Source of the DNA: a virus
Lineage: Duplodnaviria > Heunggongvirae > Uroviricota > Caudoviricetes
Length of the DNA: 39,053 bases
IMG/VR virus record: IMGVR_UViG_3300033150_000619
Reading direction: 5' to 3' (one strand)
In this document: positions 645 to 33,932 of the stretch, in pieces
How the letters are laid out: the number at the start of each line of letters is the position of its first letter
How positions within the stretch are numbered: the first letter of the stretch is position 1
The notes under the pieces: model-generated
The model's input: only the letters and a program-made list of their open reading frames with translations
Database searches by the model: none
Told to the model about the DNA's origin: nothing
Translations under genes and position numbers: made by a program

Positions 645-1327
645 TATTCTAACTCCACATCCGTTAGTGCTACTCGAATCCATTTAGTGGTTTTAGGTCC
701 AACACCCTTGATCTTACGCAACTGACTATCAGTTGCTTCGTTAACTGCTTTGATAGTGGGGTACTTCTTCAGTATCTCTTTAGCAGTTTTCCTACCCAGA
801 CCAGGTATTGTACAGAGTATGTCTTCTCTAATTTCTTGTGCTGTGTAGTGTTTCTTCTTAACCGGCTTAAGGTACTCAACCTTTCCTCTGTCTGCTCTCC
901 TAAACGCAGCATCTATAATCTTAGCTGTCTGGTCTAGATGATTAGATGGCACTATGGGAATTCCCCAACCCATAGCTATCCCCAGCAATCCACCTATAAC
1001 CTTCATTTCATCTACAGCTGTTTTCTTGTTGTATGAATATGGTAATGCTCCTTCCAGTATTATCATAGGTCTTGGATAGTTCTCTTTAGCACCTTTGAGT
1101 TGATTCCATATTCGTCCGTCACGGAGGGACTTTAACAAATCCCCCACTGTTTTCCTTTCGATACAAACGTCAGAGAATAGATAGTCGCCGATTGTTAGAG
1201 TTTCATATGAAACGGTGTGACCAAACTTAGATCTAAGTGCTTCACAGAGTTCTTTAGGTTCACGGTTATCCATTCGGATATATGCAAACGACTGTGGGTT
1301 TTCCTTAGCTAAGTCATTGAGTGTCAA
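644..1327 (-). CDS. xpf: ERCC4/XPF structure-specific nuclease with C-terminal HhH (short form, no helicase)
   Basis: D.RE, GDY..ERKT..D nuclease motif, IPGLGRKTA and IKGVGPKT HhH motifs. Confidence 0.9.
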   Translation of the reverse strand: MTLNDLAKENPQSFAYIRMDNREPKELCEALRSKFGHTVSYETLTIGDYLFSDVCIERKTVGDLLKSLRDGRIWNQLKGAKENYPRPMIILEGALPYSYNKKTAVDEMKVIGGLLGIAMGWGIPIVPSNHLDQTAKIIDAAFRRADRGKVEYLKPVKKKHYTAQEIREDILCTIPGLGRKTAKEILKKYPTIKAVNEATDSQLRKIKGVGPKTTKWIRVALTDVELE

Positions 1328-1548
1328 CGTAAATCCTTCACCAACATAGGTAATAGCTCGATGTTCATATATACGGGGTGTCCTGCTATTGCGCTGATCA
1401 TTACGCTATGCACTCCTCTAACTTCATGTCCCTTAAAATAAACTCTGCACCTTTCTGCGGTACTCCCAAAGGTGAACTTCCATTCCCCAGCTATAACCTC
1501 ACTCTCTGAGATTAGTTCAGACCTTCTCACAGGCTTGGGTCTACTCAA
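1324..1548 (-). CDS. hypothetical protein
   Basis: Fills the gap, overlapping both neighbours. Confidence 0.6.
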   Translation of the reverse strand: MSRPKPVRRSELISESEVIAGEWKFTFGSTAERCRVYFKGHEVRGVHSVMISAIAGHPVYMNIELLPMLVKDLR

Positions 1549-2422
1549 GAGTTACACTACCTGCGTCAGACTTACCTATGTCTATATATCCTGTGTCTTT
1601 AGCTAGGATAGCATGACTCATTGTTTCCATAAGACCCGGCCATCTGAATCTGTATATCCTCCTGACCTGTTCTCCATACCTCTCCCTATCTGCCTTAAGC
1701 CCGCTAAGTAAGCCAACCCATCTCTTGACGTAATATATCATGTTAGCACCGCCCCACGGCTGTATTCCATACATCATTGGATTCTTAGTCCCGTGATTAG
1801 TTATTATGAATCCTATATTGAACTCATTAGCAATTACTAGGGCTGTATCTAACATGGTCTGGATTAAAGAAGCTCTTGCTGGGAAATTCTGTGTAGTAGA
1901 TGCAATCTTAGACTTAATGGGTACGGTTATGCTATCTATGATTATGAGACCTGGCTTCTTAAAGCTCCTCAACTCCTTGTAGGCTTCGGAGTATGTTATC
2001 CAGTCTTGAGATTGGTGTGTGGTCTTTGTATCTTTAGATGTCCATTTCTTAGGGAACTTAGCCATAGCAGATACCCTTGCCTGCTCCTGCGTTATCTGGA
2101 ATTCTATACCGAAGTATCTGCCCAACGCAAACAGATCTCTCATCTGCTTTAGATGAATTCTATCCCTAACACTCTCGTCTAGTCCCCAACGCTTAATGAA
2201 CCAACCGGTTATTCTATTCCAGTCATTCTCTAACTGATAGAATGCCTCAGTATCAATGTAAACAACATCATAGCCTAGGGATGCAAACCTAACAGCAACC
2301 TGTGTAGATAGTATTGACTTACCTATATTTTGAATACCATAGAATCCAACTGGACTTCCTAGAGGAATACCACCATTCATTACCTTATCTATACTGTCGC
2401 AACCTGTACTGATTATACTCAT
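1541..2422 (-). CDS. RecA-superfamily ATPase, RadB-like (lacks the RadA N-terminal domain)
   Basis: ISTGCDSIDKVMNGGIP start, Walker A GIQNIGKS, YIDTE, Walker B LIIIDS, ITNH, PWGG. Confidence 0.85.
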   Translation of the reverse strand: MSIISTGCDSIDKVMNGGIPLGSPVGFYGIQNIGKSILSTQVAVRFASLGYDVVYIDTEAFYQLENDWNRITGWFIKRWGLDESVRDRIHLKQMRDLFALGRYFGIEFQITQEQARVSAMAKFPKKWTSKDTKTTHQSQDWITYSEAYKELRSFKKPGLIIIDSITVPIKSKIASTTQNFPARASLIQTMLDTALVIANEFNIGFIITNHGTKNPMMYGIQPWGGANMIYYVKRWVGLLSGLKADRERYGEQVRRIYRFRWPGLMETMSHAILAKDTGYIDIGKSDAGSVTLE

Positions 2423-2467
2423 TATTGTTCAACAATTAGAGTACCCTCAGTGTTTAAAAAGATATAG

Positions 2468-3217: not shown

Positions 3218-3220
3218 AAG

Positions 3221-3523: not shown

Positions 3524-5526
3524 ACTAACACTCCTTCATATAGATAGTCATCCCATCTTCCTTTGTAGTATTTGGACATCTCATCAAAGGCTACGCTAAG
3601 CGGAGTCTCATTCTTGATTCCAAACCTATAGGAAAGCTTAGTTCCATCTAACTTAGAGTGTTCATTCTCTAGCTTAGATCTAAGTGGCGGATATGGTTCA
3701 AACTGAATTCTCGGTGATTTATTAAGAGTCTTACCGCAGGTTTGTATTGCCTTAAGCCATGTCGAATACTCTCCCCCTGGTAGGTTGAAATAGTCACCTG
3801 TCTTACAGTTCTCCCATCCTCTATCTGAGAGTCCTATTGTCTTGTAGGCGTTAACAGCATCACCAACATATAGGAAATCTCTGGTCTGCAGTCCATCTCC
3901 CCAGAAGCCTATGGTTTCATCTCTAGATACGCATCTAAATATCCATGATATCATTTGATAGGCTCTTGTATGCAACCCCTGTCTAGGTCCAACTAAGTTA
4001 GCCATACGTAGAGAAACTGATGGTATCTCATCGTGATGACTGTACTTTAGTATATATTTCTCAGCAGCCAGCTTAGATATCCCATAAGAATCTAATGGAT
4101 TAGGAACATGATCTTCCGTTACAGGTAATGTACTCAGTGGAGTATACCCATATACCGATCTAGAATTGCCAGTATACATGAATTTGCCATCTAACTCTGA
4201 TAGGAAGTTCTCATTGTCCTGCACTTCTAAACACCAGACAATCCCATTATACTTTTCCATGGTAATAGACGATGGAGTTATCATTGGTGTAGTAGCTGAC
4301 ATATTGATTACATACGTCTCACTTCCGTAAATCAATGAATCTCTTGGAGATATAGTAGATATCGTAGCCCATTTACCCAGCTTTATCATTACTTCAGCAA
4401 CATCATTGGAGAGTTCTCTTGATATAGTATATATTCTATTCTTAGAGCCACTAGAATCCATTAGTCCATCCATAAGATGACTTAGTAATGATGGAGTTGC
4501 GCTTTTGTACTTAAGAGGTATATGTTTGTCATGCACAGAATTACCACACTCAGACAGTAATGATTGTAGCTCTGGATGAGTAAACATAATTCTATCTTTA
4601 TATGAATGAACTGTTATTCCATACTTCTCTAATATTAGAGTAACCCTGTCTATTGATCCACGCGGTAAATGTAAATACATACTATCGTTGGTTTTACGAC
4701 TCTGTGAGCCGTGATCTACTGTAATAAATCGTCCTCTGTTAAGCCCAGAATCTGAAGTGTAATAGTGTAGCTGCCTAGACCCATCTCCAATGTAAATCCC
4801 CAGTAAGTACATAAAGTCTGATTTATCCATGTCAATATCAATAGGAATATCAGAACCCCTCCATATTGATTTAAGGAACCTAGTATTAGACTTTCTATCT
4901 AATATCTGCATTGAAGTACGTTCTATTAAATTACCCCCGTCAGTCTCTATTAGCATTCTGTGATTAGGAGTACTTTTACTTCTAATATGCTCCCCATCCA
5001 TGTTTACTAATGAACCTCTGAACGGAAACGTCAGTACTTTAACTATTGGTTTTAGTTCCATTACCTTAGTAACTGGATTTATAGAGTAGACCAATTCACC
5101 CTCAGATAGCTCATGCCATTGTTTAAGTCCAGATTGGGTAAACACTCTTGAATCTTCACTTAAGCAACACGCGTAAACCAATCTAGGTTTATGCTCAAGT
5201 TTCCTAATACCCTCTAGTAGATTGATGGTCCCTATTATATTGCTATTAACATCTAAGTATGGATCCTTCTCTGCAAGAATGTGGCTGACATTAGCAGCTA
5301 AGTGAAAGACTGCATCCTTGTCTTTACAGTAATCTCTCCAGAATGTATCCCTAGCAATACACGCCTGTATTAACTCATACTGACCTTCCATATCCCACAC
5401 ATTACGTAGGTTAGTAGAACAGTCTACCACCGTTACTTCATGACCGTCTTCAATACAAGACTTAGTTAGGTTAGAACCTAAGAAACCGAGACCACCTGTA
5501 ATCAGGACCTTCTTACTTTCGCCCAT
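3520..5526 (-). CDS. NAD-dependent NDP-sugar epimerase/dehydratase (extended SDR) with intein
   Basis: TGGLGFLG, FHLAA, N..GT.NLLE, YGISK (YxxxK), GDGLQTRDFLYVGD. The spliced protein is 334 aa. Confidence 0.92.
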   Translation of the reverse strand: MGESKKVLITGGLGFLGSNLTKSCIEDGHEVTVVDCSTNLRNVWDMEGQYELIQACIARDTFWRDYCKDKDAVFHLAANVSHILAEKDPYLDVNSNIIGTINLLEGIRKLEHKPRLVYACCLSEDSRVFTQSGLKQWHELSEGELVYSINPVTKVMELKPIVKVLTFPFRGSLVNMDGEHIRSKSTPNHRMLIETDGGNLIERTSMQILDRKSNTRFLKSIWRGSDIPIDIDMDKSDFMYLLGIYIGDGSRQLHYYTSDSGLNRGRFITVDHGSQSRKTNDSMYLHLPRGSIDRVTLILEKYGITVHSYKDRIMFTHPELQSLLSECGNSVHDKHIPLKYKSATPSLLSHLMDGLMDSSGSKNRIYTISRELSNDVAEVMIKLGKWATISTISPRDSLIYGSETYVINMSATTPMITPSSITMEKYNGIVWCLEVQDNENFLSELDGKFMYTGNSRSVYGYTPLSTLPVTEDHVPNPLDSYGISKLAAEKYILKYSHHDEIPSVSLRMANLVGPRQGLHTRAYQMISWIFRCVSRDETIGFWGDGLQTRDFLYVGDAVNAYKTIGLSDRGWENCKTGDYFNLPGGEYSTWLKAIQTCGKTLNKSPRIQFEPYPPLRSKLENEHSKLDGTKLSYRFGIKNETPLSVAFDEMSKYYKGRWDDYLYEGVLV
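4165..5166 (-). mobile_element. Intein (334 aa) with LAGLIDADG domain, possibly degenerate
   Basis: CLSEDSRV ... STPNHRML ... LLGIYIGDGS ... LMDGLMDSSGS ... VWCLEVQDNENF..YTGN, with +1 Ser. Confidence 0.9.
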
Positions 5527-5604: not shown

Positions 5605-6213
5605 TCAACAACCTTGAGCTTCCCACTTCTTATATAACTCAAGTGTTCTCTTTACCTCCTCTACGTTCTCATAGGTCTTATCATGAATGATAATACCATA
5701 TCCGTCATAGAGTGATGTATCTGTTAAACCTAGAGGAACGTCTACTGTAGAGAGACTCAGCTGGTCTTCGTATATTACTCCACTATAACGAGCATTATGT
5801 TTGAATACCCTTAGATTCCAGTCTGGAAAGTCTTTTCCTACCTGTAAATTAAAGTTAGCATCATATATGATATTGAATCTCGGGAGGTACCAGCCACCAA
5901 CATTTCCTTCACGACATAGATCAACTAAGTCTGCACCAAGCCTTGGATCTAAGAATTCGTCTGGGTCCAATACCAGAATCCAATCTCCGCTACTAGCTTC
6001 TATAAGCTTATTCCTATGGTGCTCTACTATAGAACCCTCCAGATTATCTACTACGAACTTGTCTGTATATGGTAGTAGTCTATCTATGAATCTGCAACTT
6101 CTATCAACCATTAAGACTACTTCGTCTACATACGGTCTAGCAGACTTAAGGCATCTATCTATGACATTGGTCTCGTCCCATATCACAACATTTAAGCTAA
6201 TCAAATCTATCAC
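5605..6213 (-). CDS. Glycosyltransferase family 2
   Basis: ISLNVVIWDE..IDRCLKS, RN.LIEASSGDWILVLDPDE, PDWNLRVFK. Confidence 0.88.
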   Translation of the reverse strand: MIDLISLNVVIWDETNVIDRCLKSARPYVDEVVLMVDRSCRFIDRLLPYTDKFVVDNLEGSIVEHHRNKLIEASSGDWILVLDPDEFLDPRLGADLVDLCREGNVGGWYLPRFNIIYDANFNLQVGKDFPDWNLRVFKHNARYSGVIYEDQLSLSTVDVPLGLTDTSLYDGYGIIIHDKTYENVEEVKRTLELYKKWEAQGC

Positions 6214-6920: not shown

Positions 6921-7488
6921 TCTGTATATTTCTCCTTAAGAAGTATAGGTCACAGAACCTGCCCCTAGAAGTCCAACCGGGGATGTTCCGTATTCTCTTT
7001 TCTGGTATGACAACATTATCAAATATCAGATATCCACCATCACTTAGATCTAAGTCATAATATTCCCAGTTGAACATATGATCATGGGAGTATACGTAGA
7101 TAGAAGCTAGTCTACTACCCTTTAGCCTATCTACCTCATCCCTACGAATTACTTCAGTTGCCCCCTGCCTAACTAAGAAACTATTGAGGAACTCTGGTAC
7201 AACAGTAACTACTCTTTGCTGTTTATACCCGATATTCCTTATCAGTTTCTCTATGAACTCAGAGGTCCAATTATCATAGGATCCAATAACCAGATGAATC
7301 ACATCATCTGAGTCGGGTCTGGTCTTTGCAGATTCGATAATGGCGTATCCGATAGCAGTCTTAATAGTAATAGGCGTCTTCTCAAGAGCTACAGATTCTA
7401 CTTCCTCTATTGTTGTCTCTATCAATCTATTCGTTTCGGATGGGTTAAACCAGAACTTCTTAAGATCCTTCCACGCCATCTCCTTCAC
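6856..7488 (-). CDS. hypothetical protein, possible divergent class I SAM methyltransferase fold
   Basis: C-terminal LSDGGYLIFDNV resembles the L..GG.iifD strand of class I MTases; no clear motif I. Confidence 0.4.
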   Translation of the reverse strand: MKEMAWKDLKKFWFNPSETNRLIETTIEEVESVALEKTPITIKTAIGYAIIESAKTRPDSDDVIHLVIGSYDNWTSEFIEKLIRNIGYKQQRVVTVVPEFLNSFLVRQGATEVIRRDEVDRLKGSRLASIYVYSHDHMFNWEYYDLDLSDGGYLIFDNVVIPEKRIRNIPGWTSRGRFCDLYFLRRNIQNDSWSNDSNQGEESESTKQDI

Positions 7489-7526: not shown

Positions 7527-8318
7527 TTATAGTCTACCAAGCCATTTATCCCTCTCAATAGTAGACCTACGTATTTTATCGTCTATGTCTGGTATCATCT
7601 CACGATTTCGGGTAGCGTGTCCATAATGGAATAGGAATACAGAGGGCACCACCCATGTCTCCAACTCCTTATCGTGTAGTCCCTTCATAAGGTAGGCACC
7701 TGTATGAGATATCCTATAGTCCTGTGGGTACTTTATGTCTAGGAATGTATCTCTCCTCATAGTTGTTCCTCCTCCCTCTAATACTAAGTCTCCACGGAAA
7801 GGCTTAGATCTAAGTCTTGCCAGATAGTATTTGATGTAAGGGGAGACGTCATCTGCATGATGAAAGACTGACCCATCCTTTCTGTCATACTGAAGTATTC
7901 TAGCATATGCACTATCAATAGGTTCAGTAAATGACCTTAGCCTCGTGTCGTCATGAACTAGATTACATGCTGGTGCTACTGCACCTATTTGCTCCCTCGA
8001 CTTCAGCACACGCAGCAATCTCTTAGTCCACCCAACCTGAGTAACACGTATGTCGTTATCTAAGAAACATATAGTTTCGGATTGGGTCTCTTGTGCAGCA
8101 ACATTACGTGCATTACAAGCACCTAAGTTCCTACGTAATAAGATTAAGTGATCTATATCTACTGATGACAACCACTCCTGCGTTCCGTCCTCAGAGCCAT
8201 TATCTATCCATACCAATTCTGCATTGGGATTACTTGTGTACCTCTTGTATGCCTTATAGCATATCTTGCTGTAGGGAAGAGCATTCCACGACGTTACTAT
8301 TACAGAGATGGAGTCCAT
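7527..8318 (-). CDS. Glycosyltransferase family 2
   Basis: SVIVTSWN, IDNGSEDGT, NLGACNARN, FLDND. Confidence 0.9.
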   Translation of the reverse strand: MDSISVIVTSWNALPYSKICYKAYKRYTSNPNAELVWIDNGSEDGTQEWLSSVDIDHLILLRRNLGACNARNVAAQETQSETICFLDNDIRVTQVGWTKRLLRVLKSREQIGAVAPACNLVHDDTRLRSFTEPIDSAYARILQYDRKDGSVFHHADDVSPYIKYYLARLRSKPFRGDLVLEGGGTTMRRDTFLDIKYPQDYRISHTGAYLMKGLHDKELETWVVPSVFLFHYGHATRNREMIPDIDDKIRRSTIERDKWLGRL

Positions 8319-9265
8319 ATCCTCACCGCTCTATCATCGTTAAAGCCAGGCGGGTTCTGCATAGGTCTTACTGTCTCCCATATTGCCTTAATAGTGTCTA
8401 CGTCCCACTTCTCGTAGAACCTTTGTCTGGGATGGACGTAAGTAACACCATACTCCTCCTTCAGCTCTTTGGTTCTCTTTCCTTCTTTGCCACCGTGTTG
8501 AGATATAGTCTTGCTCACGTAATGGACTATTTTAGTATGGGAGGTAGACACCACCTTCCATCCATTTAACCATAGTCTCATACAGTAATCCACCTCATCA
8601 TTACCGAAGAAGAATGATTCATCGAAGAACCCTACATCTTCTACTGCTTCACGACGCAGTAAGATGCAGGCGCCAGGCATCCACATTACCGGAACTTCAT
8701 GCGCTCCACTCCAATGCAGTGTTATATCAAAATATCCTAGTCTATTCTTCCCCATGTCCCTTATAGTACCTCCCTTAGTTGTTTGGATAGGCGACGCATA
8801 TCCCACATTAGGATCATCGAAGCAATGTAAGACATATGACAGCCACTTCTTAGAGAAGAGTATATCGTTGTTTAATATACCAATGTAATCATAGCCATTA
8901 TCTAGTGCATGTTCCAGGGCTCTATTCCACGCATAGGATATCCAGTAAGGTCTGTCCAGTTCTATTAGCTTAACGTATGGAAACTCAGATCTAAGTCTAT
9001 CTGGCGTTCCATCTGTAGAAGCTCCGTCCAGGACTATAGTGTCAATAGGATACTCTGTATTTGCACGCAGTGACTGCAAACAATCTCTAGTGTAACTCCA
9101 CTGATTCAGTGTTGTAATAATGATACCTACTCTCTTATCAAGTGATATAGGTGTCATCGGTAGCTCCTGTGAAGCGACCTGCAATCCATTCTTAATGCAG
9201 ACTCTGCAATAGTTACCTTCCCCAATAAAAATAGATCCACATCCCCAACACTTATGCTGAGTCAT
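8300..9265 (-). CDS. Glycosyltransferase family 2 with N-terminal CxxC-x9-CxxC module
   Basis: DGASTDGT, LNNDI, GACILLRREAVEDVGFFDE..DYCMR, VHY; N-terminal CWGC...CRVC. Confidence 0.9.
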   Translation of the reverse strand: MTQHKCWGCGSIFIGEGNYCRVCIKNGLQVASQELPMTPISLDKRVGIIITTLNQWSYTRDCLQSLRANTEYPIDTIVLDGASTDGTPDRLRSEFPYVKLIELDRPYWISYAWNRALEHALDNGYDYIGILNNDILFSKKWLSYVLHCFDDPNVGYASPIQTTKGGTIRDMGKNRLGYFDITLHWSGAHEVPVMWMPGACILLRREAVEDVGFFDESFFFGNDEVDYCMRLWLNGWKVVSTSHTKIVHYVSKTISQHGGKEGKRTKELKEEYGVTYVHPRQRFYEKWDVDTIKAIWETVRPMQNPPGFNDDRAVRIWTPSL

Positions 9266-9743: not shown

Positions 9744-9749
9744 ATCTAC

Positions 9750-10007: not shown

Positions 10008-10039
10008 TACCCTGATATTCTGCACCTTTAAGTTATCAC

Positions 10040-10810
10040 TCATTTGAATAAGCTTCCATAGTCTACTCTATCAAATACATCCAGTTTGGTTTTAGCACTA
10101 GCGTTGTATATTTCTATATTATTCTCTATAGCAGTTAGCTGAGCTACCCTGTATGAGTTAGTAGTTAAGTCTGTCCTAGGTTTATGATACTTCCTCCCCT
10201 CTCCAAAGTAGTCAGGTGTAAAATGGTCTGGATCATCACCTGATGATATAAGTCTCCCCTCAGACATACCAACCTCCCTAACATCATCTGTTCTGGAATA
10301 GTAGTGATCTATACCTATCAAATATATTGGATTGTATCCCATCATGCACGCTACCTGCAACATAAAGTATGTGACAGTCATTCCATGATATACTCTATCC
10401 GGAGATAGAGAAAAGTCTGGCCAGTACAGCAACCTATTCCCTATCCTTTTCCACCCACCCCTGATCTGGTTAACTAAGCAAACATTACTCCAGTTGGTTA
10501 TAGACTCAGCTAACTCGTAGGGTAGGAACTTGATGTCTGCTTCTAATGCATTCCATTCGTATACTGTATCTCTGGCTACCCTAACATCTTCTATACACCA
10601 ATAAGGAAAGTTAAAGTCAAGGTTCCACTTGTCATAGCCTAAATAAATCCTGTTACAGCTGAAGCAATCCTCGTCCTTGAGAAGACTTAGATCTAAGTCA
10701 TTTAGAGATGGTCCATTACCAATTACGAAGCACCTACCAGACTTAGTGTTGTGTAGGTCATGCAACGTCAGGTACTTCTTATTCCTTAGAAACTCTATAT
10801 CCTGATTCAT
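10040..10810 (-). CDS. DUF115/Maf-like (sialyltransferase-like) glycosyltransferase
   Basis: RCFVIGNGPSL, NRIY, G.TVT...LQVA..MGY.PIYLIGIDH, DHF..DYF, IYNAS. Confidence 0.8.
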   Translation of the reverse strand: MNQDIEFLRNKKYLTLHDLHNTKSGRCFVIGNGPSLNDLDLSLLKDEDCFSCNRIYLGYDKWNLDFNFPYWCIEDVRVARDTVYEWNALEADIKFLPYELAESITNWSNVCLVNQIRGGWKRIGNRLLYWPDFSLSPDRVYHGMTVTYFMLQVACMMGYNPIYLIGIDHYYSRTDDVREVGMSEGRLISSGDDPDHFTPDYFGEGRKYHKPRTDLTTNSYRVAQLTAIENNIEIYNASAKTKLDVFDRVDYGSLFK

Positions 10811-17028: not shown

Positions 17029-17289
17029 CTACCAAGCGTGAGAACCTAATGATATTGCTAAGCTATTGCATCGTCCTATTCTTAACTCCTCTAACAGACA
17101 TATCTGTAGCCCAGAATCTATAATCTCCCTTCTGACTCTACGATAGAAGACTCTAACACTAGGCGGATGTATCACCTTAATGCTATTGTTGATTAAATCG
17201 AATCTCGCAACAGAGGTCATATTTATACGTCTATGGCTAACCCTATCTAGTAAACTGTTTACTACTCTATCTATTAACCTGTACATCAT
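17029..17289 (-). CDS. hypothetical protein
   Basis: Co-oriented ORF overlapping the MTase stop. Confidence 0.45.
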   Translation of the reverse strand: MMYRLIDRVVNSLLDRVSHRRINMTSVARFDLINNSIKVIHPPSVRVFYRRVRREIIDSGLQICLLEELRIGRCNSLAISLGSHAW

Positions 17290-20276: not shown

Positions 20277-20719
20277 TATACCAACTCTGATCTAACTAAC
20301 ATCAGTAACCTACCTAGGTGGTTTTGACCTTTACCATTGAACTCTCCCCAATACTTATCGTGGGGAGACTCTTCAAAGAGATAGGCATCACCAGTATCAA
20401 TTAGCTTCTGTTTTAGATCTGGATCACTAAACTTAGCTCTCAGTCCCTTTAACATTATATCCTGCTTTACGGCATTCCAGTCTAGCCTCAGCTCACCCCT
20501 ATACTTCCTAAGAGCCCTTCCAGCCTTCATAGCATGAAACGGAGCAGGAGCATTTCTAATCCAATCATGAAGCTCTTTAGTAGTTGCTTTTTGAGATTGG
20601 TAATAGTGTTCATTGCTGGGATATATGATACCGTCAACGACCTGTGTACTTCTATGGAAGTTGCTTAGCCATCCATACTCTTCTTTTCTACTGTAGAATC
20701 CTATCTTCTTCATCAGCAC
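20276..20719 (-). CDS. NADAR (YbiA) family protein
   Basis: FY....YGWLSNF, EHYYQSQK, K.GR, W..VK..IM..GLRAKF, L.DTGD..L.E.SP.D.YWG..G.N.LG.LLM.VR. Confidence 0.95.
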   Translation of the reverse strand: MLMKKIGFYSRKEEYGWLSNFHRSTQVVDGIIYPSNEHYYQSQKATTKELHDWIRNAPAPFHAMKAGRALRKYRGELRLDWNAVKQDIMLKGLRAKFSDPDLKQKLIDTGDAYLFEESPHDKYWGEFNGKGQNHLGRLLMLVRSELV

Positions 20720-21047: not shown

Positions 21048-22497
21048 TCTCTGTCCATCTCTCCTTAATCTCTTCTAGACTATTGTTATTTTGTAGGTAG
21101 AAGCACTCTAACATTCTTTCATATAGAACTGCCATTGCTCTATTATCTAATGTCTCAGTTTCTATCATTTCCTTCATGACCGGGTGGCTGTTGTTGAATA
21201 CCAGTACGAAGGGTTCCTTATCAAAGAACATCATAGGGTATTCTGTCCCTAAGTCTACTGCCCTAGCTCCTCTTAGTGGTCTAGGCTTTGGCTTATTCTT
21301 TTCTACTTCTGCCACGCCATCAGATATTTCGGAACCAATCATTGATTCGATTCCTGGAATATCTGGAGCCTCCTCTGTTATTTCGAGCTGTCCATGATTC
21401 GTTTCTACCCATTGGTCGCCTATCAGAGTACTGATAGAAGGCTCCTCAACTGCGAAGTATAGTTCGTCTCTCTGGCCTGCAATTGATTGTAAGTCTTCTG
21501 TCAACTCTGGCTTAGTTCCGAAGTCTAAATACTCTGGTAAGTCAGGAAAGTCCACCGGTTCATCTTTACCTATTACCTTAACTTCTTCAGGTATGTATGC
21601 TGGTAAATCCTTCTTTACTGTCTTAAGGAATACTCTAAACTTAGCCATTACTCTTTCCATAAACTCTATCTCTAATTTCTTAAGTGTAGAGGACGGTCTT
21701 AACTTCCTAAGAGTGTTGCGTACATTACGCAGATATCTGTGATAATGTACGTTATTGATATATCCCTCCCTGTCCGTCTTGATATCGAGGTCTTCTTCAT
21801 CTACCCACGCATCAAGGCCGGTGAATGCTTCAGACTTTATCTCTATTCCACGGTGGCAGTAATGAATTCTACCGTCCTGTTTATCCCTGTAGTAGATAGT
21901 ATAGGGGTATCTCTTCTTCTTCTTTCTGTAAGTCTCATCAAGCTTAGATCTAAGTCCTATATCATTAATTGTGATTGTACAAAGCCCTTCGTACAGGGGT
22001 ATACTGAATATCCTCTCTATATCTTCTCTTATCTTATCTGCGTCTATTTCTAAGTCCAATTCCCTAAACCAGAGGTAGAAGCCACTGGACTTGAACGGTG
22101 GATCAAATGGAGTCTCTACTAGTGACCACCCATTCCTATCTACCTCCCACGTAAGAATGCTGTCTCCTTTTCGCTGGCTTTGAACTATTCCCTTAGACTT
22201 GAGTCTTGATATCAGTGCTAGTCTTCCTATACCAAACATTCCAATTGAATAGGATTCCTCCTTAGCACCAGAGCCTATGATACCATAGGTATTAGCAAAG
22301 TCATCTATTCCTAGACCATCGTCCGCATAACATATACTGTGGTCACCCAGCTTCATAGTAATGTTAACTACACCGTCTCTTGCATCTAATGAGTTGGCTA
22401 TTAACTCTCTTATGCCCGCTAAGGATTGATCTGTGTACATTCTATCGGCTAATAGGGTAATGAGCCTGTCAATGTCTACGCCCCATTGTTCAGCCAA
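21019..22497 (-). CDS. GHKL ATPase, Hsp90/HtpG- or MORC-like
   Basis: RELIANSLDA, DDGLGI, GSGAK, IGMFGIG; later DIKTDRE and FNNSHPV. Confidence 0.82.
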   Translation of the reverse strand: MAEQWGVDIDRLITLLADRMYTDQSLAGIRELIANSLDARDGVVNITMKLGDHSICYADDGLGIDDFANTYGIIGSGAKEESYSIGMFGIGRLALISRLKSKGIVQSQRKGDSILTWEVDRNGWSLVETPFDPPFKSSGFYLWFRELDLEIDADKIREDIERIFSIPLYEGLCTITINDIGLRSKLDETYRKKKKRYPYTIYYRDKQDGRIHYCHRGIEIKSEAFTGLDAWVDEEDLDIKTDREGYINNVHYHRYLRNVRNTLRKLRPSSTLKKLEIEFMERVMAKFRVFLKTVKKDLPAYIPEEVKVIGKDEPVDFPDLPEYLDFGTKPELTEDLQSIAGQRDELYFAVEEPSISTLIGDQWVETNHGQLEITEEAPDIPGIESMIGSEISDGVAEVEKNKPKPRPLRGARAVDLGTEYPMMFFDKEPFVLVFNNSHPVMKEMIETETLDNRAMAVLYERMLECFYLQNNNSLEEIKERWTEIDNHLQEML

Positions 22498-24111: not shown

Positions 24112-25611
24112 TTAAATCTCTTTATCCTCATCTAAGCCACAGTCCGTACATAGAGTTTCTCCAGTCTTAATAGAGAACAGCTTAGGAGCAAATCTCTCTA
24201 TCGGTTTACCACACCTATCACATATGACTATATCTTCTATAAACTCCCATCCCTTAGACTCTAAGTCTGACTTCATCTCAGATTCGAGCCTATCGTAGAG
24301 TCCAGGTTCAATAGCTTCCAATATCATCTTACGGAAGGTAGAAGACATATAGTAATCTAGGTAATCTCCCTCTCCTACTGCCTCTGCTATACGAGCTCCC
24401 CACCACCTAAATGATCCAGATACTATCTGTCCAGAGGGTAGCTTAACGTCTCTATTGACTACTAATCCCCACAGAATCTCACCGTCATCAGATCCAATGT
24501 TTGGCAGGGACTTCTTTATCTCATCAACTACATTGTATTCCTCTCTTCCCATCTATCACCACTCCTTGATATGCCGTGTCATTCTTCCATCTCCGGTTTA
24601 AACTATGATAGCATCCTCTTTATGAATAACGGGGATTCCATAAAGGGTCTTTATTACCCCTGCCTCTACTATGTCTGGATAATCATACATAATCTTTATT
24701 GCCTGTCTATGTTCCATTGAGAGAACTAAATACTTTGGCATCTTTGCGTTCTCTGATCTAAACTTCATTATCTGATCATCGATCTCTTCTAGAAGCCTTT
24801 CAACGACGCTCATGGTGCTTCCTCTGGTTGTCTAGTAGAAGCCAAGATAAGGCATCTTTGGCAGTAAGGACCGTCTAGTACATCCATATAGATGTCCATA
24901 TCTGAATCATACTTAACGTGACGTGAATAATAATACCAAATATTCGGTAGTTCAACACCACACTCCTTGCATCTCTTGACTACGGTAGCAGCCTTCATTT
25001 CATATCATCTTTTATCTCTTTTGTAGTATCCATACCAAAAGACTACACAATTCTTGCAATCAAAGTTCTTAGTACACTCGAGTTCATCGACGAATCTACA
25101 TTTCTGATTGTCTGTCAACTAATATAACTCCTTGTAAGGTCTTTTTCTCCACGAATGTTGAAGATTGATATGTCTCATTAACTCCACGTAAGTCTTAAAC
25201 ATACCTTCACAGTAAGGACATTTAATGTATCTGAATCATAAATGATCGCTTATGATCGCTTATACCCAACTATTGTAACCTCTCTTGATCTATTTTTAGA
25301 ATCTCCTTTAGAGGAACGAGTCCGTCTTTAGAGGATTTATGTTCTCCATCAGAGGGAAAGAAGAATATGGTAATATTTCCAGTTCCATCTTGGTTTTTGT
25401 ATGCGCCAACCTGCCAGTTTATATACCCTCTTTCCGTTAACAGATTCCATAGACGCGTTATATCTGAATCTTGATAAAACTCTATCTGGATGTGGGGGCT
25501 AGGATAATGTCCACATGAACAAAATGTATTAAATCCGCTGTTACGGAGAATGTAGATAAGTTCTTTTAATGGGTCTTCTATGCAGTCGTACCATACTGGA
25601 AGTTTTCTCAT
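24112..25611 (-). other. Run of small hypothetical genes (24112-24552 with Zn finger, 24598-24813, 24810-24998 Zn finger, 25270-25611)
   Basis: Co-oriented; CxxC motifs. Confidence 0.6.
25119..25235 (-). pseudogene. C2H2 zinc-finger reading frame with no in-frame start codon
   Basis: FRYIKCPYCEGMFKTYVELMRHINLQHSWRK...*; preceded in frame by TGA; the nearest ATG (25239) is out of frame. Confidence 0.5.
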
Positions 25612-25724: not shown

Positions 25725-26369
25725 TCAATAATCAGTCAACCTCCGAGGAATCTTTATGTCATCCCAGTTGGATTCAAGCTTCTCATCTTTAGAAAGGACT
25801 TCAAGGTACTCTTCCAAACGTCTTCTAATCTTCAAGAGCTCACTATGCTCTTCTTGAAGACGTTTAGAGTTCTCCAACCGTTTCTGTATTTGTTTATCAG
25901 TACGTCTCAGTTCCCTTTTTACTGCTTCCTGCCGCAATTGATGAATCCACTTGGTGGTGGGTTTATCATTACAATCCTGGCAGATTATAATTCCATAAGC
26001 CATCCCTTCTGGGAATTTGAATGTTCTCTCCTCGAAGGGGTATTTGTTGACGCTTTTAACTGTATGCCATCCTTTGTGATAGTCCATTTCCATGTATCGA
26101 TCTTGAACTATCTTACCGCAGAAATGACATTGTTCATGTACTATATCACTCATTTTAACCTCGCCTATAGTCACATCTTCCTGTTTGAAGTGTGGTAGAT
26201 ATTCTAAGTCCCTTATTTTAAGTGTATTCGTTGGAGCCATTATTGCAATTGTAGCTTCGACTACAAGCTTCCTCCATTTATGGAATACTGACATATGGAA
26301 TAGAGCTTCTTCCAGATCTGGAAATACAATGCAACACGCCCTACAGATATACCTGATACCTCTGTCCAT
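25725..26369 (-). CDS. hypothetical protein with N-terminal C2H2 finger, CxxC pair and coiled coil
   Basis: CRAC..F......HMSVFH; CHFC...CQDC; heptad-rich C-terminus. Confidence 0.65.
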   Translation of the reverse strand: MDRGIRYICRACCIVFPDLEEALFHMSVFHKWRKLVVEATIAIMAPTNTLKIRDLEYLPHFKQEDVTIGEVKMSDIVHEQCHFCGKIVQDRYMEMDYHKGWHTVKSVNKYPFEERTFKFPEGMAYGIIICQDCNDKPTTKWIHQLRQEAVKRELRRTDKQIQKRLENSKRLQEEHSELLKIRRRLEEYLEVLSKDEKLESNWDDIKIPRRLTDY

Positions 26370-27108
26370 TTACTATCCTCGATATCATTGATGGAGATAC
26401 ATCGTACAACTCTCCTATCTCCCTAAGTTTATGACCTTTCTCTCTAAGGTACTTAATACGCCCTACGTCTTCCTCAGATAACTTAGATCTAAGTCTTGGG
26501 TGTCTCCTATTGTATTCTTTCAGCTTTAGAAAGAGATTGTATTTACGATTAAGTACAACGGTGGGTTCGTACCATAGATGGTTCCCAAGTTCCTCTGCTT
26601 TCCATCTACCATTAAAGCTCAGTGAGTATGATTCCCTATCCTTTACAACGTTGGGTAGCATACTGAATATCTGTCTTATCTCTATTATATCACGTATTCC
26701 CTGTACGATAGATTTAGTACCATTCCATCTTATGATTGTAGTTGGTGGATTAATGTAGATGGTACCGTCTGCATCAAACAGACCTCTTAGGAAGTCAAAG
26801 GTATAGGTTGATGGTATGTCTTCCCAATAAATAGTTCTAGATTTACAGGGTCTTAGTCCTATACGACGCAATGCTTCAGTTTGTTCTTTGATCTCTATAG
26901 TGAATTGATAGTATTCTGGATATGCTCTGCTGAATCTTCTGATGTATCCACCACCAAAGAACTTCTTACATTTATGCAAATGGTACAGGTCTCTCTCCTG
27001 CAATACAACTGTAATCCTGTTCCTATGTCTTGAGAGATTACCATCCCCAATTAAGAACCCGTACCAATATGACTCTTCGCGAGTGGTTATACCATCGGCG
27101 TATCTCAT
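26341..27108 (-). CDS. Free-standing two-motif LAGLIDADG homing endonuclease with C-terminal HTH
   Basis: WYGFLIGDGN, FLRGLFDADGT, L.RK; KLSEEDV..I....G..LREIGELYDVSPSMISRIVNG. Confidence 0.9.
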   Translation of the reverse strand: MRYADGITTREESYWYGFLIGDGNLSRHRNRITVVLQERDLYHLHKCKKFFGGGYIRRFSRAYPEYYQFTIEIKEQTEALRRIGLRPCKSRTIYWEDIPSTYTFDFLRGLFDADGTIYINPPTTIIRWNGTKSIVQGIRDIIEIRQIFSMLPNVVKDRESYSLSFNGRWKAEELGNHLWYEPTVVLNRKYNLFLKLKEYNRRHPRLRSKLSEEDVGRIKYLREKGHKLREIGELYDVSPSMISRIVNGQRYQVYL

Positions 27109-29613: not shown

Positions 29614-29868
29614 TCATTCTCACGGAGTTAAAGTATGTATAGAGATGCCTTAAGAGAAACTCACTCAGTGTCAGTCTCTACACTTAGATCTAAGTCTAAA
29701 GCTCAAGGATATCTTCTCTCCACAATATAGTTGTGCACTCTACATCTCTTTACACGGTCTATTCTATTCGGGTAGATACACTCCACTTCGTATACTTTGC
29801 TACACAGGTTGTACATATTACCTAAGAAGATGTATCCACCATTTCTCTTTACTTTAGAGGTTCCCCAG

Positions 29869-31521: not shown

Positions 31522-31523
31522 CC

Positions 31524-31559
31524 TAATCACCGTGATTACTATGGTGTCGATTTATATAA
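31524..31559 (-). promoter_or_regulatory. TATA box, SD and overlapping palindrome upstream of the aRF1 gene
   Basis: TTATATAAA (31551-31559), GGTGA (31527-31531) and the inverted repeat TAATCAC-N-GTGATTA (31524-31538). Confidence 0.5.
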
Positions 31560-31655
31560 CTCCATAGGTTAGTTCTCCTTTAATCAACGTTAGATGCGGA
31601 GTACTGATTGATCAATAAACATTTATTCCAGGATGTACAGATGGAGCAGTTCTCT

Positions 31656-33932
31656 TCACATATCTTCACGGTTACTTACCCATTCTGTAATTTTATCATA
31701 GAACATCATAGGCATCTTACTTCGTGCCAGTGCTAATGATTGATATATAGGATCATATTTCCTATGAGAGAGCATCGTCTCACATTCTGCCTTAGATAGA
31801 TAAGCTATCTCAATATCTGCAGTAACTGGGATTATATTATCCGTAGCAAGAATATATCTAATCCTAGACTTAACTAACTGTTCAATTCGTTTAGCCATTC
31901 TAATTCCATCGCTGTGAGATTATGCTGTTTCTTATATATTACATAGTTGTCTACTATCTCGACCTTGGTCATAGAGAAGGACATCCATCCTCCCCTATGA
32001 TAAAATGCACATTCGATCCAATAAACCGGGTATCTTCTCAATCTTTTAATCTCAATGTCCGAATATGGTAAACCTAGTTTCTTAGAGATCGTTGGTACCT
32101 CCTTTTGTTCGGTGGTACACCGTTGGTACACCTTCAGATCGTTGGTACCTCTATAGTATTGTTGGAGTCAGTTGTAGATACGGTGGTAGTCAGGTAGGTG
32201 TATATTGTGTGCTGTACCTATCTCCGATTTCTGAGCCAATCGATGATGCAGTATCCTCGATAACAGTTTATGGGAATGAATGGATCATCTGAACTAGTTT
32301 GATATCTAGAGTCTATTAGCTTCCTAAGATAGGACATCTCACTTGATATCGGTCTACATGAAGTTAGATCACAGTTCCTATCATCACAGGATACCTCTAA
32401 GTCACATACCCTGAGATACGGTACCTGTCTAGATGGAAACCGATTATATGTGGCAGACCAACTATAGGTGGATGGCATATCTCTCTTCTCCCTCCTTCCT
32501 ATACTTATCATATACTTATTAATCCCACCAAGCATAAACGCAGTATCCAGTATCAGTCTTATCGACCTCTATACTATCTGCATGATGATAAGTTGTTACT
32601 AGACTTAGTCCCTCGTCTGCCGTTAGTCGAGTAGCCTCGAATCCTTCGATAGAGACTCGATAGTCAAACCTAGGAGGTAATATCACGTATCCGTGTAGTG
32701 TTATCCTGTCCTTATACACGTCACACAGTTGTAAGAACTCCCCTATTCGGGGTGAATAGTTCTGCGTAGACTCTAACCAGTTACTGTCATCATAGCAGTA
32801 CCTGTCGTCATAGTGACCTATTATATCGTGTAGTGTCATGACCTGGTCTTTAGTTAGACCTCTGAATCTATGATAAACATCAGACGTATTGCTGTATCTT
32901 ACTCTCTGTCCATTAATTACTCGTAGAATCTCAGCGTAATCTTCGTTCATCGGTAGCACTTAGATCTAAGTCGTTGCTTTATGTTTGGCTAATGACTCTG
33001 CTATCTTATTCTTCATTTTAGTCCTAGCCGACTTCATACCTCTGCTGAGTTCATCTATGTGTGGATCTGTGTCAGACCATAGTCTATATTTGTCCATAGC
33101 CTGTTTGTACTTCTTAGGACAACAGAATCCATACTTAGTAGCCCAGTTCTCTTTTCTCTCTTCCTCTGGGATTGCGTCACAACCACAGTCATAACTAATT
33201 TGGTTCATCTAATCCTCTCTTAGAGAGCGTAATGCCTGTACAAGGAATTCTTCTACCTCTTCTATTGATAGAATATCGAATTTATCTGGCACTATAAAGA
33301 ACCCGTAGTCCGTTCCTTTGAAGGCTGTTTCTAAGACACTCTGTAGATGTACTAGTTGGTCCTGATGTAAGTCAGAAGGTACCTTTATCCATAAGATATG
33401 TTTAGTTGTCATTCTTACCACTCCAATCTTTTGTTCTCGGAAATACTATTCCGTCGAATGCATCATATGAGAATATATCATGTCTCCTTAACCAACGGCA
33501 TTCCTCTATCCACAGGACTAAATGTGGTTCGTGTGGGTGTCTGCATTCCAGCTCCCATACGAATTTATAAAAGTCCTCTAACCAGCAGGAGGGTCTCATT
33601 GCAAGGTATATCGTCTATCACCCTTCATTCCTTCCATAGTAAAGGAATAGAGACATCCCCATCAACCATATACCCGTATACAGGAACTTTGTCTCCTCAG
33701 TCCATATAGATACGAATATTAGGAATGCTCCGAATAGGAAGGCGGAATCTATCTTATCTGGAATCTGCATATATCTAAACCTCTCACTTAGATCTAAGTA
33801 TTTATTGAAGAGCCAGTCCCATACAGTAAATCCATATTTGGTTAACCCCATGATAAGTATCCCTGCTATCGAACCTATCAGTATTGCTTCGATAGTGAAT
33901 AAGTAGAATTCAATAGATGATAGCTCTATCAT
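31656..33932 (-). other. Run of small hypothetical genes (31656, 31874, 32218, 32519, 32966, 33209, 33402, and the 33618 membrane protein)
   Basis: Co-oriented and tightly packed; no family that I can name. Confidence 0.55.
32086..32151. repeat. Cluster of four CG(T/G)TGGTAC repeats
   Basis: AGATCGTTGGTACCTC at 32086-32101 and 32136-32151, flanking the tandem CGGTGGTACAC/CGTTGGTACAC. Confidence 0.8.

What the first reader, a model, noticed from the sequence alone, without database searches (positions are those of the whole stretch)
1225..33799. Highly iterated 14-bp palindrome RCTTAGATCTAAGT written through coding sequence in all frames
SEEN: there are ten exact CTTAGATCTAAG copies (1226, 3673, 7043, 7803, 10686, 21943, 26482, 29683, 32959, 33787). 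All are followed by T and preceded by a purine; seven are the perfect 14-mer ACTTAGATCTAAGT. Near copies occur at 5942, 8984 and ~24253 (one inserted base). A rough base-composition estimate gives on the order of 0.01 expected copies in 39 kb. The motif encodes LRSK in five unrelated proteins and LDLS in three, is intergenic once, and at 32959 supplies the TAG stop of one gene plus the GTG of the next ORF. No exact copy falls in any of the five inteins. The signal therefore acts at DNA level, not protein level. KNOWN analogies: cyanobacterial HIP1 (GATC-cored, associated with methyltransferases) and dispersed binding sites such as parS, matS and SlmA/Noc sites. INFERENCE: this may be an undescribed genome-wide marking system (segregation, compaction, packaging, self-recognition or repair-generated sites). 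It could be linked to the two beta-class MTases, since the core AGATCT is a known m4C target of M.BglII, or to a small DNA-binding protein of the element.
Basis: partly seen in the sequence, partly recalled or inferred. Interest (0 to 1): 0.85.

Follow-up and report, generated by a model that had tools for sequence, protein, structure and literature searches.

The report
Iterated 14-bp palindrome in archaeal virus
A large virus-like element, probably of sediment archaea (Bathyarchaeia), writes one exact 14-letter DNA palindrome about every 4-6 kb through its genes, changing its own proteins to do so, which points to an unidentified DNA-reading protein that acts along the whole genome.

Summary
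The window holds 10 exact CTTAGATCTAAG, against 0 in 100 shuffles. It overlaps a 136-kb IMG/VR contig of the same virus, and together they carry 25 exact sites in about 155 kb.

The signal is in the DNA, not the protein:
- A synonymous-codon shuffle gives 0.26 sites against 20 seen in coding sequence.
- Every LRSK and LDLS tetrapeptide in the proteome is encoded by the motif.

Sites arise by substitution, not insertion. They are spaced roughly at random and include gene ends, where the motif's TAG serves as the stop codon.

A syntenic relative (median 57% amino-acid identity) has 9 exact copies in 49.5 kb. None sits at an orthologous codon, so the word is conserved while its positions turn over. 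More distant relatives lack the excess. So do 401 genomes of the candidate host class.

My best reading (about 0.5) is that these are dispersed binding sites of a dimeric, probably virus-encoded, DNA-binding protein, and that site density rather than position matters. The only weak candidate reader is a conserved WhiA-like double-LAGLIDADG-plus-HTH protein. The link to the methyltransferases is untested, and AGATCT outside the motif is not enriched.

This exact word was not seen before in the scan. Analogous dispersed words were noted in other archaeal viruses and elements.

The parts
1225..1238 (.). Perfect 14-mer ACTTAGATCTAAGT inside the XPF/ERCC4 nuclease gene (644-1327, minus strand), read as LRSK.
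   Evidence: It aligns without a gap to A. pernix XPF, where the residues are ILES.
3672..3685 (.). GCTTAGATCTAAGT in the C-terminal part of the NDP-sugar epimerase gene (3520-5526, minus strand), read as LRSK.
   Evidence: The relative's orthologue reads IRIK at this place, without a gap.
7042..7055 (.). Perfect 14-mer in ORF 6856-7488 (minus strand), read as LDLS.
7802..7815 (.). GCTTAGATCTAAGT in the GT2 glycosyltransferase gene (7527-8318, minus strand), read as LRSK.
   Evidence: The relative reads LKKH here.
10685..10698 (.). Perfect 14-mer in the MptE/CST-I-like gene (10040-10810, minus strand), read as LDLS.
   Evidence: The relative reads DTDVA here.
21942..21955 (.). GCTTAGATCTAAGT in the GHKL (HATPase_c_3) gene (21019-22497, minus strand), read as LRSK.
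   Evidence: The 16-sequence alignment A1 has no gap here, and the homologues read LSS/LST.
26481..26494 (.). Perfect 14-mer in the linker just before the HTH of the LAGLIDADG-HTH gene, read as LRSK.
   Evidence: The HTH_38 match on G001 overlaps the site.
29682..29695 (.). Perfect 14-mer in an intergenic gap, 9 nt after the stop codon of the upstream small ORF.
32958..32971 (.). Perfect 14-mer at a gene junction. Its TAG is the stop of ORF 32966-33208, and the GTG of ORF 32519-32959 abuts it.
33786..33799 (.). Perfect 14-mer in ORF 33618-33932 (minus strand), read as LDLS.
5942..5953 (.). One-mismatch copy, CTTGGATCTAAG.
8983..8996 (.). One-mismatch copy, ACTCAGATCTAAGT.
20431..20444 (.). Two-mismatch copy, ACTTAGCTCTCAGT, in the NADAR-like gene. 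The relative has a perfect site (LRSK) at the orthologous codons.
24253..24265 (.). Variant with one base inserted between the half-sites, CTTAGA-C-TCTAAG.
26341..27108 (-). Weak candidate reader: a free-standing double-LAGLIDADG protein with a C-terminal HTH (255 aa), the same architecture as WhiA.
   Evidence: Pfam LAGLIDADG_1/_3 plus HTH_38/HTH_3. Of the nine DNA-binding families searched over G001, only its HTH gave matches over the curated cut-off. D22 and D114 are invariant in 9 orthologues. The fold matches I-AniI, the bI3 maturase and WhiA 3hyi.
17267..18610 (-). Beta-class N6_N4 DNA methyltransferase interrupted by a mini-intein. Its link to the motif is untested.
   Evidence: Its intein-less orthologue in the relative carries TSPPY.
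35996..37804 (-). Beta-class N6_N4 DNA methyltransferase with a LAGLIDADG intein and motif IV TSPPY (N4-cytosine type). Its link to the motif is untested.

Best explanation
The 14-bp palindrome RCTTAGATCTAAGY is a dispersed recognition site for a sequence-specific DNA-binding protein that binds as a symmetric dimer. The protein is most likely encoded by the virus itself. Selection keeps about one perfect site per 4-6 kb along the whole genome. What matters is the number or density of sites, not their exact position. New sites are made by point substitutions wherever a protein tolerates LRSK, LDLS or a stop codon, and old sites are lost. The function is therefore genome-wide: organisation or compaction, marking of own DNA, global silencing, or road-blocking of the long one-directional transcription. 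It is not control of individual promoters. Shown here: the excess, its DNA-level nature, origin by substitution, conservation of the word with turnover of positions, and absence from distant relatives and from genomes of the candidate host class. Inferred: that a protein reads it, that the protein is viral, and what binding achieves. The only named candidate reader is the conserved LAGLIDADG-HTH protein at 26341-27108, and I give it only about 0.2.
For: - Excess: 10 sites in the window and 25 in the merged 154.6 kb. Shuffles, base composition and a Markov-3 model give 0 to 0.08.
- DNA level: a synonymous shuffle gives 0.26 sites against 20 in coding sequence. All 7 LRSK and all 13 LDLS peptides are encoded by the motif, although codon usage gives each about a 1% chance. 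The relative shows the same pattern.
- Sharp specificity: 25 perfect copies, 7 with one mismatch and 10 with two (15 expected). Spaced half-site variants are not enriched. A 12-14 bp perfect dyad without a spacer is the usual format of dimeric operators.
- The word is conserved in a syntenic relative with median 57% amino-acid identity, which has 9 exact copies in 49.5 kb. None of the 9 sites that lie in alignable orthologues (5 in this genome, 3 in the relative, plus the relative's epimerase site checked by hand) is at the same codon, and all these alignments are gap-free.
- Spacing is about random (CV 0.88, P=0.34), with no cluster.
- No excess in 401 genomes of the class of a Bathyarchaeota MAG whose TFB is 57% identical to the viral one. 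Twenty-two genomes have 1-2 hits, about the same as for the reversed control word.
- The candidate reader exists and is conserved.
Against: - No reader is identified. G001 has no ParB_N, HTH_24 or RHH_1 match. The only other hints are a sub-threshold AbrB-like ORF and a very weak MarR-like match.
- The LAGLIDADG-HTH protein also occurs in motif-negative lineages, and three of its orthologues have no site in their own gene.
- As a pseudo-symmetric monomer with unlike halves, that protein is not an obvious reader of a perfect dyad.
- About 80% of sites are intragenic and are not tied to promoters, unlike classical operators.
- A mutational or repair drive would also give conservation of the word with turnover of positions.
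- The host is only inferred, and the true host genome may not be among those searched.
Confidence: 0.5

Rival explanations
1. The palindromes are cleavage or nicking sites of an element-encoded rare-cutting endonuclease, most plausibly the LAGLIDADG-HTH enzyme. It would cut across the central GATC and leave self-complementary 4-nt ends. Programmed breaks would seed recombination-dependent replication or genome shuffling. RadA-like recombinase, XPF and two ATP-dependent ligases would repair the breaks.
For: Both LAGLIDADG catalytic-type aspartates are invariant in 9 orthologues. The fold matches active monomeric homing endonucleases. LAGLIDADG enzymes cut across a central 4 bp (established knowledge of the family), and here the centre is GATC. 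The element encodes RadA-like, XPF/ERCC4 and ligase genes. The enzyme's own gene carries a site in two lineages, and a spaced version of the same half-sites in a third.
Against: Twenty-five self-cleavage sites would be hazardous. Monomeric two-domain LAGLIDADG enzymes normally read about 20 bp asymmetric targets, not a 14-bp perfect dyad. The enzyme is also present in lineages without the dispersed word. There is no evidence of ends or rearrangements at the sites: the window, G001 and L136 are collinear.
Confidence: 0.12
2. This is a HIP1-like process. The word is created and kept by a methyltransferase-linked repair or conversion bias, or it functions through methylation of its AGATCT/GATC core by the element's N4-cytosine-type methyltransferases. 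A dedicated binding protein would not be needed.
For: There are two beta-class N6_N4 methyltransferases in the window and one or more in the relative, with SPPY motif IV. Elhai 2015 (PMC4390886) links HIPs to cognate methyltransferases and proposes a repair drive. Conservation of the word with turnover of positions fits a drive.
Against: AGATCT outside the motif is at chance level, 11 against about 12 expected, and GATC is not enriched. Three of the six one-mismatch 12-mers that I traced break AGATCT, so deviations do not spare the putative methyltransferase core, unlike in HIP1. A 12-14 bp specificity is far beyond ordinary Type II methyltransferases. Motif-negative relatives (L133) also carry two such methyltransferases. 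The density of 1 per 6 kb is much lower than that of HIP1.
Confidence: 0.12
3. The word is read by a host protein that the virus recruits or titrates. Examples would be a host regulator, a chromatin or segregation factor, or a Chi-like signal that tames a host nuclease. The virus accumulates sites to exploit that factor.
For: No convincing viral reader was found. The density of 1 per 5-6 kb, and placement in coding sequence at an amino-acid cost, resemble Chi and DNA-uptake sequences (PMC1939737, listed, title and abstract only). Two viral lineages that probably share a host group keep the same word.
Against: No excess appears in any of 401 genomes of the candidate host class, where counts equal those of the reversed control. 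Chi and uptake signals are over-represented in the cell's own genome. More distant relatives of the virus, whose TFBs are at least as close to this virus's TFB as the Bathyarchaeota-type cellular TFBs are, lack the word.
Confidence: 0.12
4. There is no DNA-level function. The copies would be a by-product of a favoured peptide, of inserted mini-elements, of an RNA hairpin, or of a sequencing or assembly artefact.
For: The motif is built from fairly common codons (AGA, TCT, AAG).
Against: The peptides exist only where the word is written, and permuted peptides are at background. Alignments show no insertions. The possible hairpin is only 5 A/U-rich pairs (inspection of the sequence). The sites recur in independent assemblies and in a relative at 57% identity.
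Confidence: 0.02

Closest known systems
HIP1 (GCGATCGC) and alternate highly iterated palindromes of cyanobacteria (Elhai 2015, PMC4390886)
   Same: Both are exact palindromes with a GATC centre, written into coding sequence in the permissive frames. Both are gained by substitution. In both, methyltransferases are encoded nearby or in the same genome.
   Different: HIPs are 8 bp, occur about once per kb, and fill the cellular chromosome. This word is 12-14 bp, occurs about once per 4-6 kb, and is confined to a viral lineage, with no excess in 401 genomes of the candidate host class. Its inner core AGATCT is not enriched on its own, and deviations do not spare it.
Operator and stoperator network of Cluster A mycobacteriophages (L5, Bxb1; PMC9283540, PMC6550527)
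   Same: Both have more than twenty copies of one 13-14 bp word spread over a whole viral genome, read (there) by one virus-encoded protein. The genes run largely in one direction.
   Different: Stoperators are asymmetric and co-oriented with transcription. They lie in promoters and short intergenic gaps and are bound by a monomer. Here the word is a perfect dyad, about 80% of copies are inside genes, their positions are not conserved, and no repressor is identified.
Dispersed palindromic sites of nucleoid or plasmid organisers: KorB operators of RK2, Noc NBS, SlmA SBS, MatP matS, ParB parS (own knowledge; papers listed were not read)
   Same: These are 12-16 bp palindromes present at about 10-70 copies and scattered over a replicon, some inside genes. 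They are read by one dimeric protein with a global role.
   Different: No ParB-family domain is encoded in the 136-kb contig. Those systems belong to bacterial chromosomes and plasmids. Their sites are positionally conserved and mostly non-coding.
WhiA (bacterial domesticated LAGLIDADG plus HTH regulator; PMC3240954, PMC3781837; PDB 3hyi)
   Same: The candidate reader has the same architecture, a two-domain LAGLIDADG scaffold followed by a C-terminal HTH. 3hyi is among its structural matches (E 2e-7). WhiA binds many chromosomal sites.
   Different: The protein has no match to the WhiA-specific Pfam families. The LAGLIDADG acidic residues, which WhiA has lost (own knowledge), are retained here. 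The resemblance to WhiA is structural only (17% identity), so whether the shared architecture is convergent or inherited is undecided. Binding to the palindrome is not shown.
DNA uptake sequences and Chi sites (PMC1939737)
   Same: These are short exact words kept at kb-scale density inside genes at some coding cost, with turnover of positions.
   Different: They are asymmetric or orientation-biased, and they are over-represented in the cell's own chromosome and read by cellular machinery. This word is symmetric and confined to the virus.

Membership tests
Highly iterated palindromes (HIP1 type) | Palindrome over-represented throughout the cellular genome. | tested here: not met
   The excess is in the virus and one related viral lineage only. 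In 401 genomes of the candidate host class, 22 have 1-2 hits, about the same as the reversed control word.
Highly iterated palindromes (HIP1 type) | A cognate methyltransferase that recognises the word or its core. | not testable with these tools
   N6_N4 methyltransferases with SPPY motif IV are present, but their specificity cannot be derived here. Motif-negative relatives have them too.
Highly iterated palindromes (HIP1 type) | One-base deviations concentrate on the outermost bases and spare the methyltransferase core. | tested here: inconclusive
   The outer pair of the 14-mer is the most variable: 3 of 10 sites in the window and 5 of 20 in G001. Among six one-mismatch 12-mers, three hit the A or T of AGATCT and none hits GATC. 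The number of variants is too small to decide.
Stoperator network (Cluster A mycobacteriophages) | Asymmetric site co-oriented with transcription. | tested here: not met
   The site is a perfect palindrome.
Stoperator network (Cluster A mycobacteriophages) | Sites lie in promoters or short intergenic gaps. | tested here: not met
   Twenty of 25 sites are inside coding sequence. Five are at gene ends or in gaps, against a 7% non-coding fraction.
Stoperator network (Cluster A mycobacteriophages) | Cognate immunity repressor encoded by the phage. | tested here: inconclusive
   None is recognised. The only candidates are the LAGLIDADG-HTH protein, a sub-threshold AbrB-like 86-aa ORF and a very weak MarR-like match.
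ParB/KorB/Noc-type site networks | A ParB-family (ParB_N) protein is encoded. | tested here: not met
   PF02195 has no match in G001 or G002 at E<=0.01, while the control genomes match. None was found among the window ORFs scanned.
ParB/KorB/Noc-type site networks | A 12-16 bp palindromic site in tens of copies over the replicon. | tested here: met
   Twenty-five copies of a 12-14 bp dyad lie in 154.6 kb.
Inserted palindromic mini-elements (MITE/RPE-like) | Copies appear as insertions relative to homologues. | tested here: not met
   Alignments are gap-free at the sites in XPF, the GHKL ATPase, the epimerase (two sites), GT2, the MptE-like protein and the LAGLIDADG-HTH protein.
WhiA-like domesticated LAGLIDADG-HTH regulators (for the candidate reader) | Two LAGLIDADG domains followed by a C-terminal HTH. 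| tested here: met
   Pfam hits, AlphaFold2 model with pLDDT 82, and Foldseek matches to I-AniI, the bI3 maturase and WhiA 3hyi.
WhiA-like domesticated LAGLIDADG-HTH regulators (for the candidate reader) | Loss of the catalytic acidic residues, and WhiA-specific sequence families. | tested here: not met
   D22 and D114 are invariant in 9 orthologues. There are no PF02650, PF10298 or PF14527 hits.

The most novel reading that the evidence does not exclude
An archaeal virus lineage maintains a genome-wide 'self' word: a 14-bp dyad kept at constant density by continual gain and loss inside its own genes. The word is read by a domesticated, or still active, LAGLIDADG-HTH protein. This would be a viral counterpart of WhiA/Noc-type chromosome readers, used to organise, mark or process the viral DNA. 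Together with the analogous words the scan noted in other archaeal viruses, it would point to a widespread and undescribed layer of genome-wide DNA signalling in archaeal viruses.
Probability: 0.15. Interest if true: 0.85.

Novelty: new variant of a known kind. Interest (0 to 1): 0.66.

Why it matters
Exact words kept at kb-scale density inside genes, such as HIP1, Chi, uptake sequences and stoperators, have each revealed a dedicated DNA-reading machine. Here the word is long (12-14 bp) and perfectly symmetric. It is specific to the virus, old enough to be shared by lineages at 57% protein identity, and costly enough to rewrite conserved enzymes such as the epimerase, XPF and NrdD. That makes a concrete and testable prediction: one protein binds ACTTAGATCTAAGT. 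The system in question, large viruses of uncultured sediment archaea, has no experimentally known regulation. The word is also a practical marker for recognising contigs of this viral lineage in metagenomes.

Tried and rejected
- Scan of viral contigs for the 14-mer: at least 118 stretches matched, but outside G001 they are single chance hits with no protein kinship to this virus.
- GenBank phage collection: no DNA match. Only distant TFB matches to Sulfolobales and Halorubrum viruses.
- Genome-contig scan with the GHKL alignment: only two spurious bacterial hits, so no host or provirus was found.
- G002 (133 kb, 37% identity): no exact copy. Its excess of GAAACTTAG, which shares ACTTAG with the half-site, is mostly in frame as E-K-L-R and looks like a codon or peptide effect, not a related site.
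- Spaced half-site variants TTAGA-N(1-8)-TCTAA: not enriched.
- Regular spacing or clustering: not found.
- Promoter association: I saw no TATA-like context on reading the five non-coding sites. The promoter scan tool was not run.
- Insertion origin: rejected.
- Phyletic search for a reader: the LAGLIDADG-HTH protein is present in both motif-positive and motif-negative lineages. The AbrB-like ORF has no homologue in any fetched relative, and the relative's contig does not reach that region.
- DNA for orthologues P0140 and P0141 could not be fetched. P0139's gene has no site.
- Repeated 12-mer ACTTCCTAAGAG: five copies on both strands, no pattern found.
- Complex prediction was not used, because no protein-protein claim is made.

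Full report
OBSERVATION. The window holds exactly ten CTTAGATCTAAG at the stated coordinates, and none appeared in 100 dinucleotide-preserving shuffles. Seven copies are ACTTAGATCTAAGT and three are GCTTAGATCTAAGT. Base composition predicts 0.004 copies. I add 20431, which has two mismatches. Nested counts show where the information lies: AGATCT 23, TAGATCTA 12, TTAGATCTAA 11, and the 12-mer 10. About 11 AGATCT therefore lie outside the word, which is what composition predicts, and GATC is not enriched. The unit is the 12-mer plus a weaker outer R/Y pair.

WHAT THE ELEMENT IS. Nearly all genes lie on the minus strand. They include:
- an archaeal TFB, a short XPF/ERCC4 nuclease and a RadA-like ATPase;
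- a glycosylation island;
- two beta-class N6_N4 methyltransferases and many inteins.

Window positions from about 18159 to 39053 overlap, at about 98-99% identity, the start of IMG/VR contig IMGVR_UViG_3300033149_001352 (G001). G001 is 136,445 bp, linear, and CheckV rates it 89% complete. It adds NrdD with inteins, two ATP-dependent ligases, UDG and a second TFB. GenBank phage and virus records hold no relative. The TFB is 57-59% identical to cellular TFBs that NCBI labels Candidatus Bathyarchaeota. The host is therefore probably Bathyarchaeia, but this is an inference.

GENOME-WIDE EXCESS AT THE DNA LEVEL. G001 carries 20 exact 12-mers. Merged with the non-overlapping left 18 kb of the window, that makes 25 sites in 154.6 kb. 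I ran these tests on the merged sequence, using a simple longest-ORF gene set of 242 ORFs that is 93% coding:
- A synonymous-codon shuffle within genes gives 0.26 sites (maximum 4) against 20 observed in coding sequence.
- A codon-order shuffle gives 0.02.
- The proteome holds 7 LRSK and 13 LDLS tetrapeptides, against 0.9 and 1.8 expected. Every one is encoded by the word, although codon usage gives each encoding a chance of only about 1%.
- Permuted peptides are at background.

The peptides therefore exist because the DNA word is there, not the reverse.

The mismatch spectrum is sharp. There are 25 perfect copies, 7 with one mismatch (1.1 expected), 10 with two (15 expected) and 107 with three (118 expected). 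Half-sites separated by 1-8 bp are not enriched.

ANATOMY. The word has two open frames, CTT-AGA-TCT-AAG = LRSK and TTA-GAT-CTA-AGT = LDLS. The third frame holds TAG and TAA. Eight sites read LRSK and twelve read LDLS, two of these in plus-strand genes. Five sites are non-coding or at gene ends. At two of them the motif's own TAG is the stop codon. One follows a TGA directly. One lies 4 nt before a start codon. This is the pattern expected if sites can sit anywhere that does not truncate a protein. Spacing does not differ from random (mean 6.2 kb, CV 0.88, P=0.34), and there is no origin-like cluster. On reading the five non-coding sites I saw no TATA-like context. The promoter and terminator scan tool was not run.

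EVOLUTION. Homologues of the GHKL ATPase (21019-22497) led to syntenic relatives.

The first relative is a 106.8-kb contig of NCBI metagenome GCA_044343285.1, of which I read 49.5 kb.
- It has the same GC content (40%) and a median 57% amino-acid identity over 24 shared genes.
- It carries 9 exact 12-mers, against 0.004 expected for the first 41 kb.
- Its LRSK and LDLS peptides are again encoded by the word.
- None of the 9 sites that fall in alignable orthologues is at the same codon in both lineages, and every alignment is gap-free. The epimerase reads LRSK against IRIK at one place and LEHK against LRSK at another. Other pairs are GT2 LRSK/LKKH, the MptE-like protein DLDLS/DTDVA, the GHKL protein LRSK/LSSL and XPF LRSK against ILES in A. 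pernix.
- One perfect site in the relative (NADAR gene) faces a two-mismatch copy in the window, at 20431.

Sites are therefore made by substitution, at an amino-acid cost and even in well-conserved enzymes. They turn over, while the word and its density persist.

More distant relatives show no excess of this or any other palindrome. These are the GC-33% lineage L133/L134/L138 (42% identity) and the 133-kb G002 (37% identity).

A census of 401 genomes of the class of a Bathyarchaeota-type MAG found 22 genomes with one or two copies. That is about the same as for the reversed control word. The word is thus not a host-wide HIP-like feature in the genomes searched.

WHO READS IT. I searched G001 in six frames with nine DNA-binding families.
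- ParB_N, HTH_24 and RHH_1 gave no match.
- An 86-aa ORF gave a sub-threshold AbrB-type match, and there was a very weak MarR-type match.
- The only matches over the cut-off (HTH_3, HTH_38) lie in the C-terminus of a free-standing protein with two LAGLIDADG domains (window 26341-27108).

That protein is syntenic and 44-55% identical in all related lineages, and both LAGLIDADG aspartates are invariant. Its model (pLDDT 82) matches monomeric homing endonucleases, the bI3 maturase and WhiA 3hyi. It therefore has the WhiA architecture but keeps catalytic-type residues.

Its own gene carries a site in the linker before the HTH in the window lineage (LRSK). The relative has one 12-15 codons further on (LDLS, also seen as a peptide in P0140). 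The motif-negative lineage L133/L134 has TTAGA-TATA-TCTAA, the same half-sites with a 4-bp spacer, in the same 17-codon stretch. I estimate the chance of this three-lineage coincidence at roughly 1e-3, but the estimate is post hoc. Against this candidate, three orthologues (P0139, P0141, P0143) show no site, and the protein is not confined to motif-positive genomes. It is a lead, not a finding.

As for the methyltransferases, the enzyme at 35996-37804 and the relative's orthologue of the other one carry TSPPY, which is typical of N4-cytosine enzymes. Their specificity cannot be read from sequence here.

MECHANISM AND RIVALS. My preferred reading (0.5) has three parts:
- A dimeric sequence-specific protein, probably viral, binds the dyad.
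- Selection acts on site density along the genome.
- The role is global: organisation or compaction, self-marking, silencing or road-blocking.

The rivals are:
- programmed cleavage at the central GATC by the LAGLIDADG enzyme, feeding recombination-dependent replication (0.12);
- a HIP1-like drive or function linked to methylation or repair (0.12);
- recruitment of a host factor, Chi-like or uptake-like (0.12);
- no DNA-level function, or an artefact (0.02).

About 0.12 remains for something not considered.

COMPARISON AND NOVELTY. The phenomenon works like HIP1, stoperators, KorB/Noc/SlmA site networks, Chi or uptake sequences, but it fails a defining feature of each:
- It is not host-wide.
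- It is not asymmetric or intergenic.
- No ParB protein is encoded.
- It is not an insertion.

I found no description of such a word in archaeal viruses in the paper library. Earlier notes of this scan report analogous dispersed words in other archaeal viruses and elements. I did not check those notes. They suggest a wider class but do not count as support.

Noticed in passing
G001 9582-10133 and 26250-26777 (window 27673-28740 is the first): The element encodes two TFB paralogues (355 and 297 aa). The first is 57-59% identical to Bathyarchaeota-labelled cellular TFBs, which is the basis of my host inference.
   Followed up: partly
In the relative, a motif copy sits in the gap just upstream (L132 447).
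   Followed up: no
L209 5869-7401 (relative contig JAZHCI011948489.1): The relative encodes a 510-aa Ro60/TROVE plus vWA protein, an RNA-quality-control type gene that is unusual in an archaeal virus. The greedy ORF comparison found no homologue in the window genome.
   Followed up: no
G001 77858-82447 (L130 359-4948, minus strand): The NrdD gene (1529 aa) carries inteins. One motif copy (NLDLS) lies only 4 codons after an intein's C-terminal HN/C junction. In the relative's intein-less epimerase, an LRSK site lies 8 codons before the point where the window's epimerase holds its intein.
   Followed up: partly
window and G001, many genes: Intein load is very high. Hint, Intein_splicing or LAGLIDADG hits occur in the epimerase, a GT4 glycosyltransferase, both methyltransferases, two radical-SAM proteins, NrdD, a second GT4 and at least two unknown proteins. 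The relative's epimerase, methyltransferase and GT4 lack them.
   Followed up: no
G002 (IMGVR_UViG_3300009499_000295), whole contig: GAAACTTAG occurs 32 times, against about 1.5 expected from composition. It shares ACTTAG with the palindrome's half-site, but most copies are in frame as E-K-L-R in co-oriented genes, so it is probably a codon or peptide effect.
   Followed up: partly
merged coordinates 20503, 21702, 26758, 101067, 145698 (window about 20503, 21702, 26784): The 12-mer ACTTCCTAAGAG has five exact copies on both strands inside unrelated genes. One copy encodes the DFLRGL of the LAGLIDADG motif. The repeat is unexplained.
   Followed up: partly
G001 112523-112783 (+): An 86-aa ORF with a SpoVT/AbrB-type motif (sub-threshold, E 7.6e-5) has no homologue in any fetched relative. 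It is a second possible DNA binder.
   Followed up: partly
window 21019-22497 and alignment A1: A 490-aa GHKL (HATPase_c_3) protein with invariant IKTDREG and ELxxNSxDA motifs is a good hallmark gene for this whole group of uncultured archaeal viruses. It has 17 homologues, all in metagenomes.
   Followed up: partly
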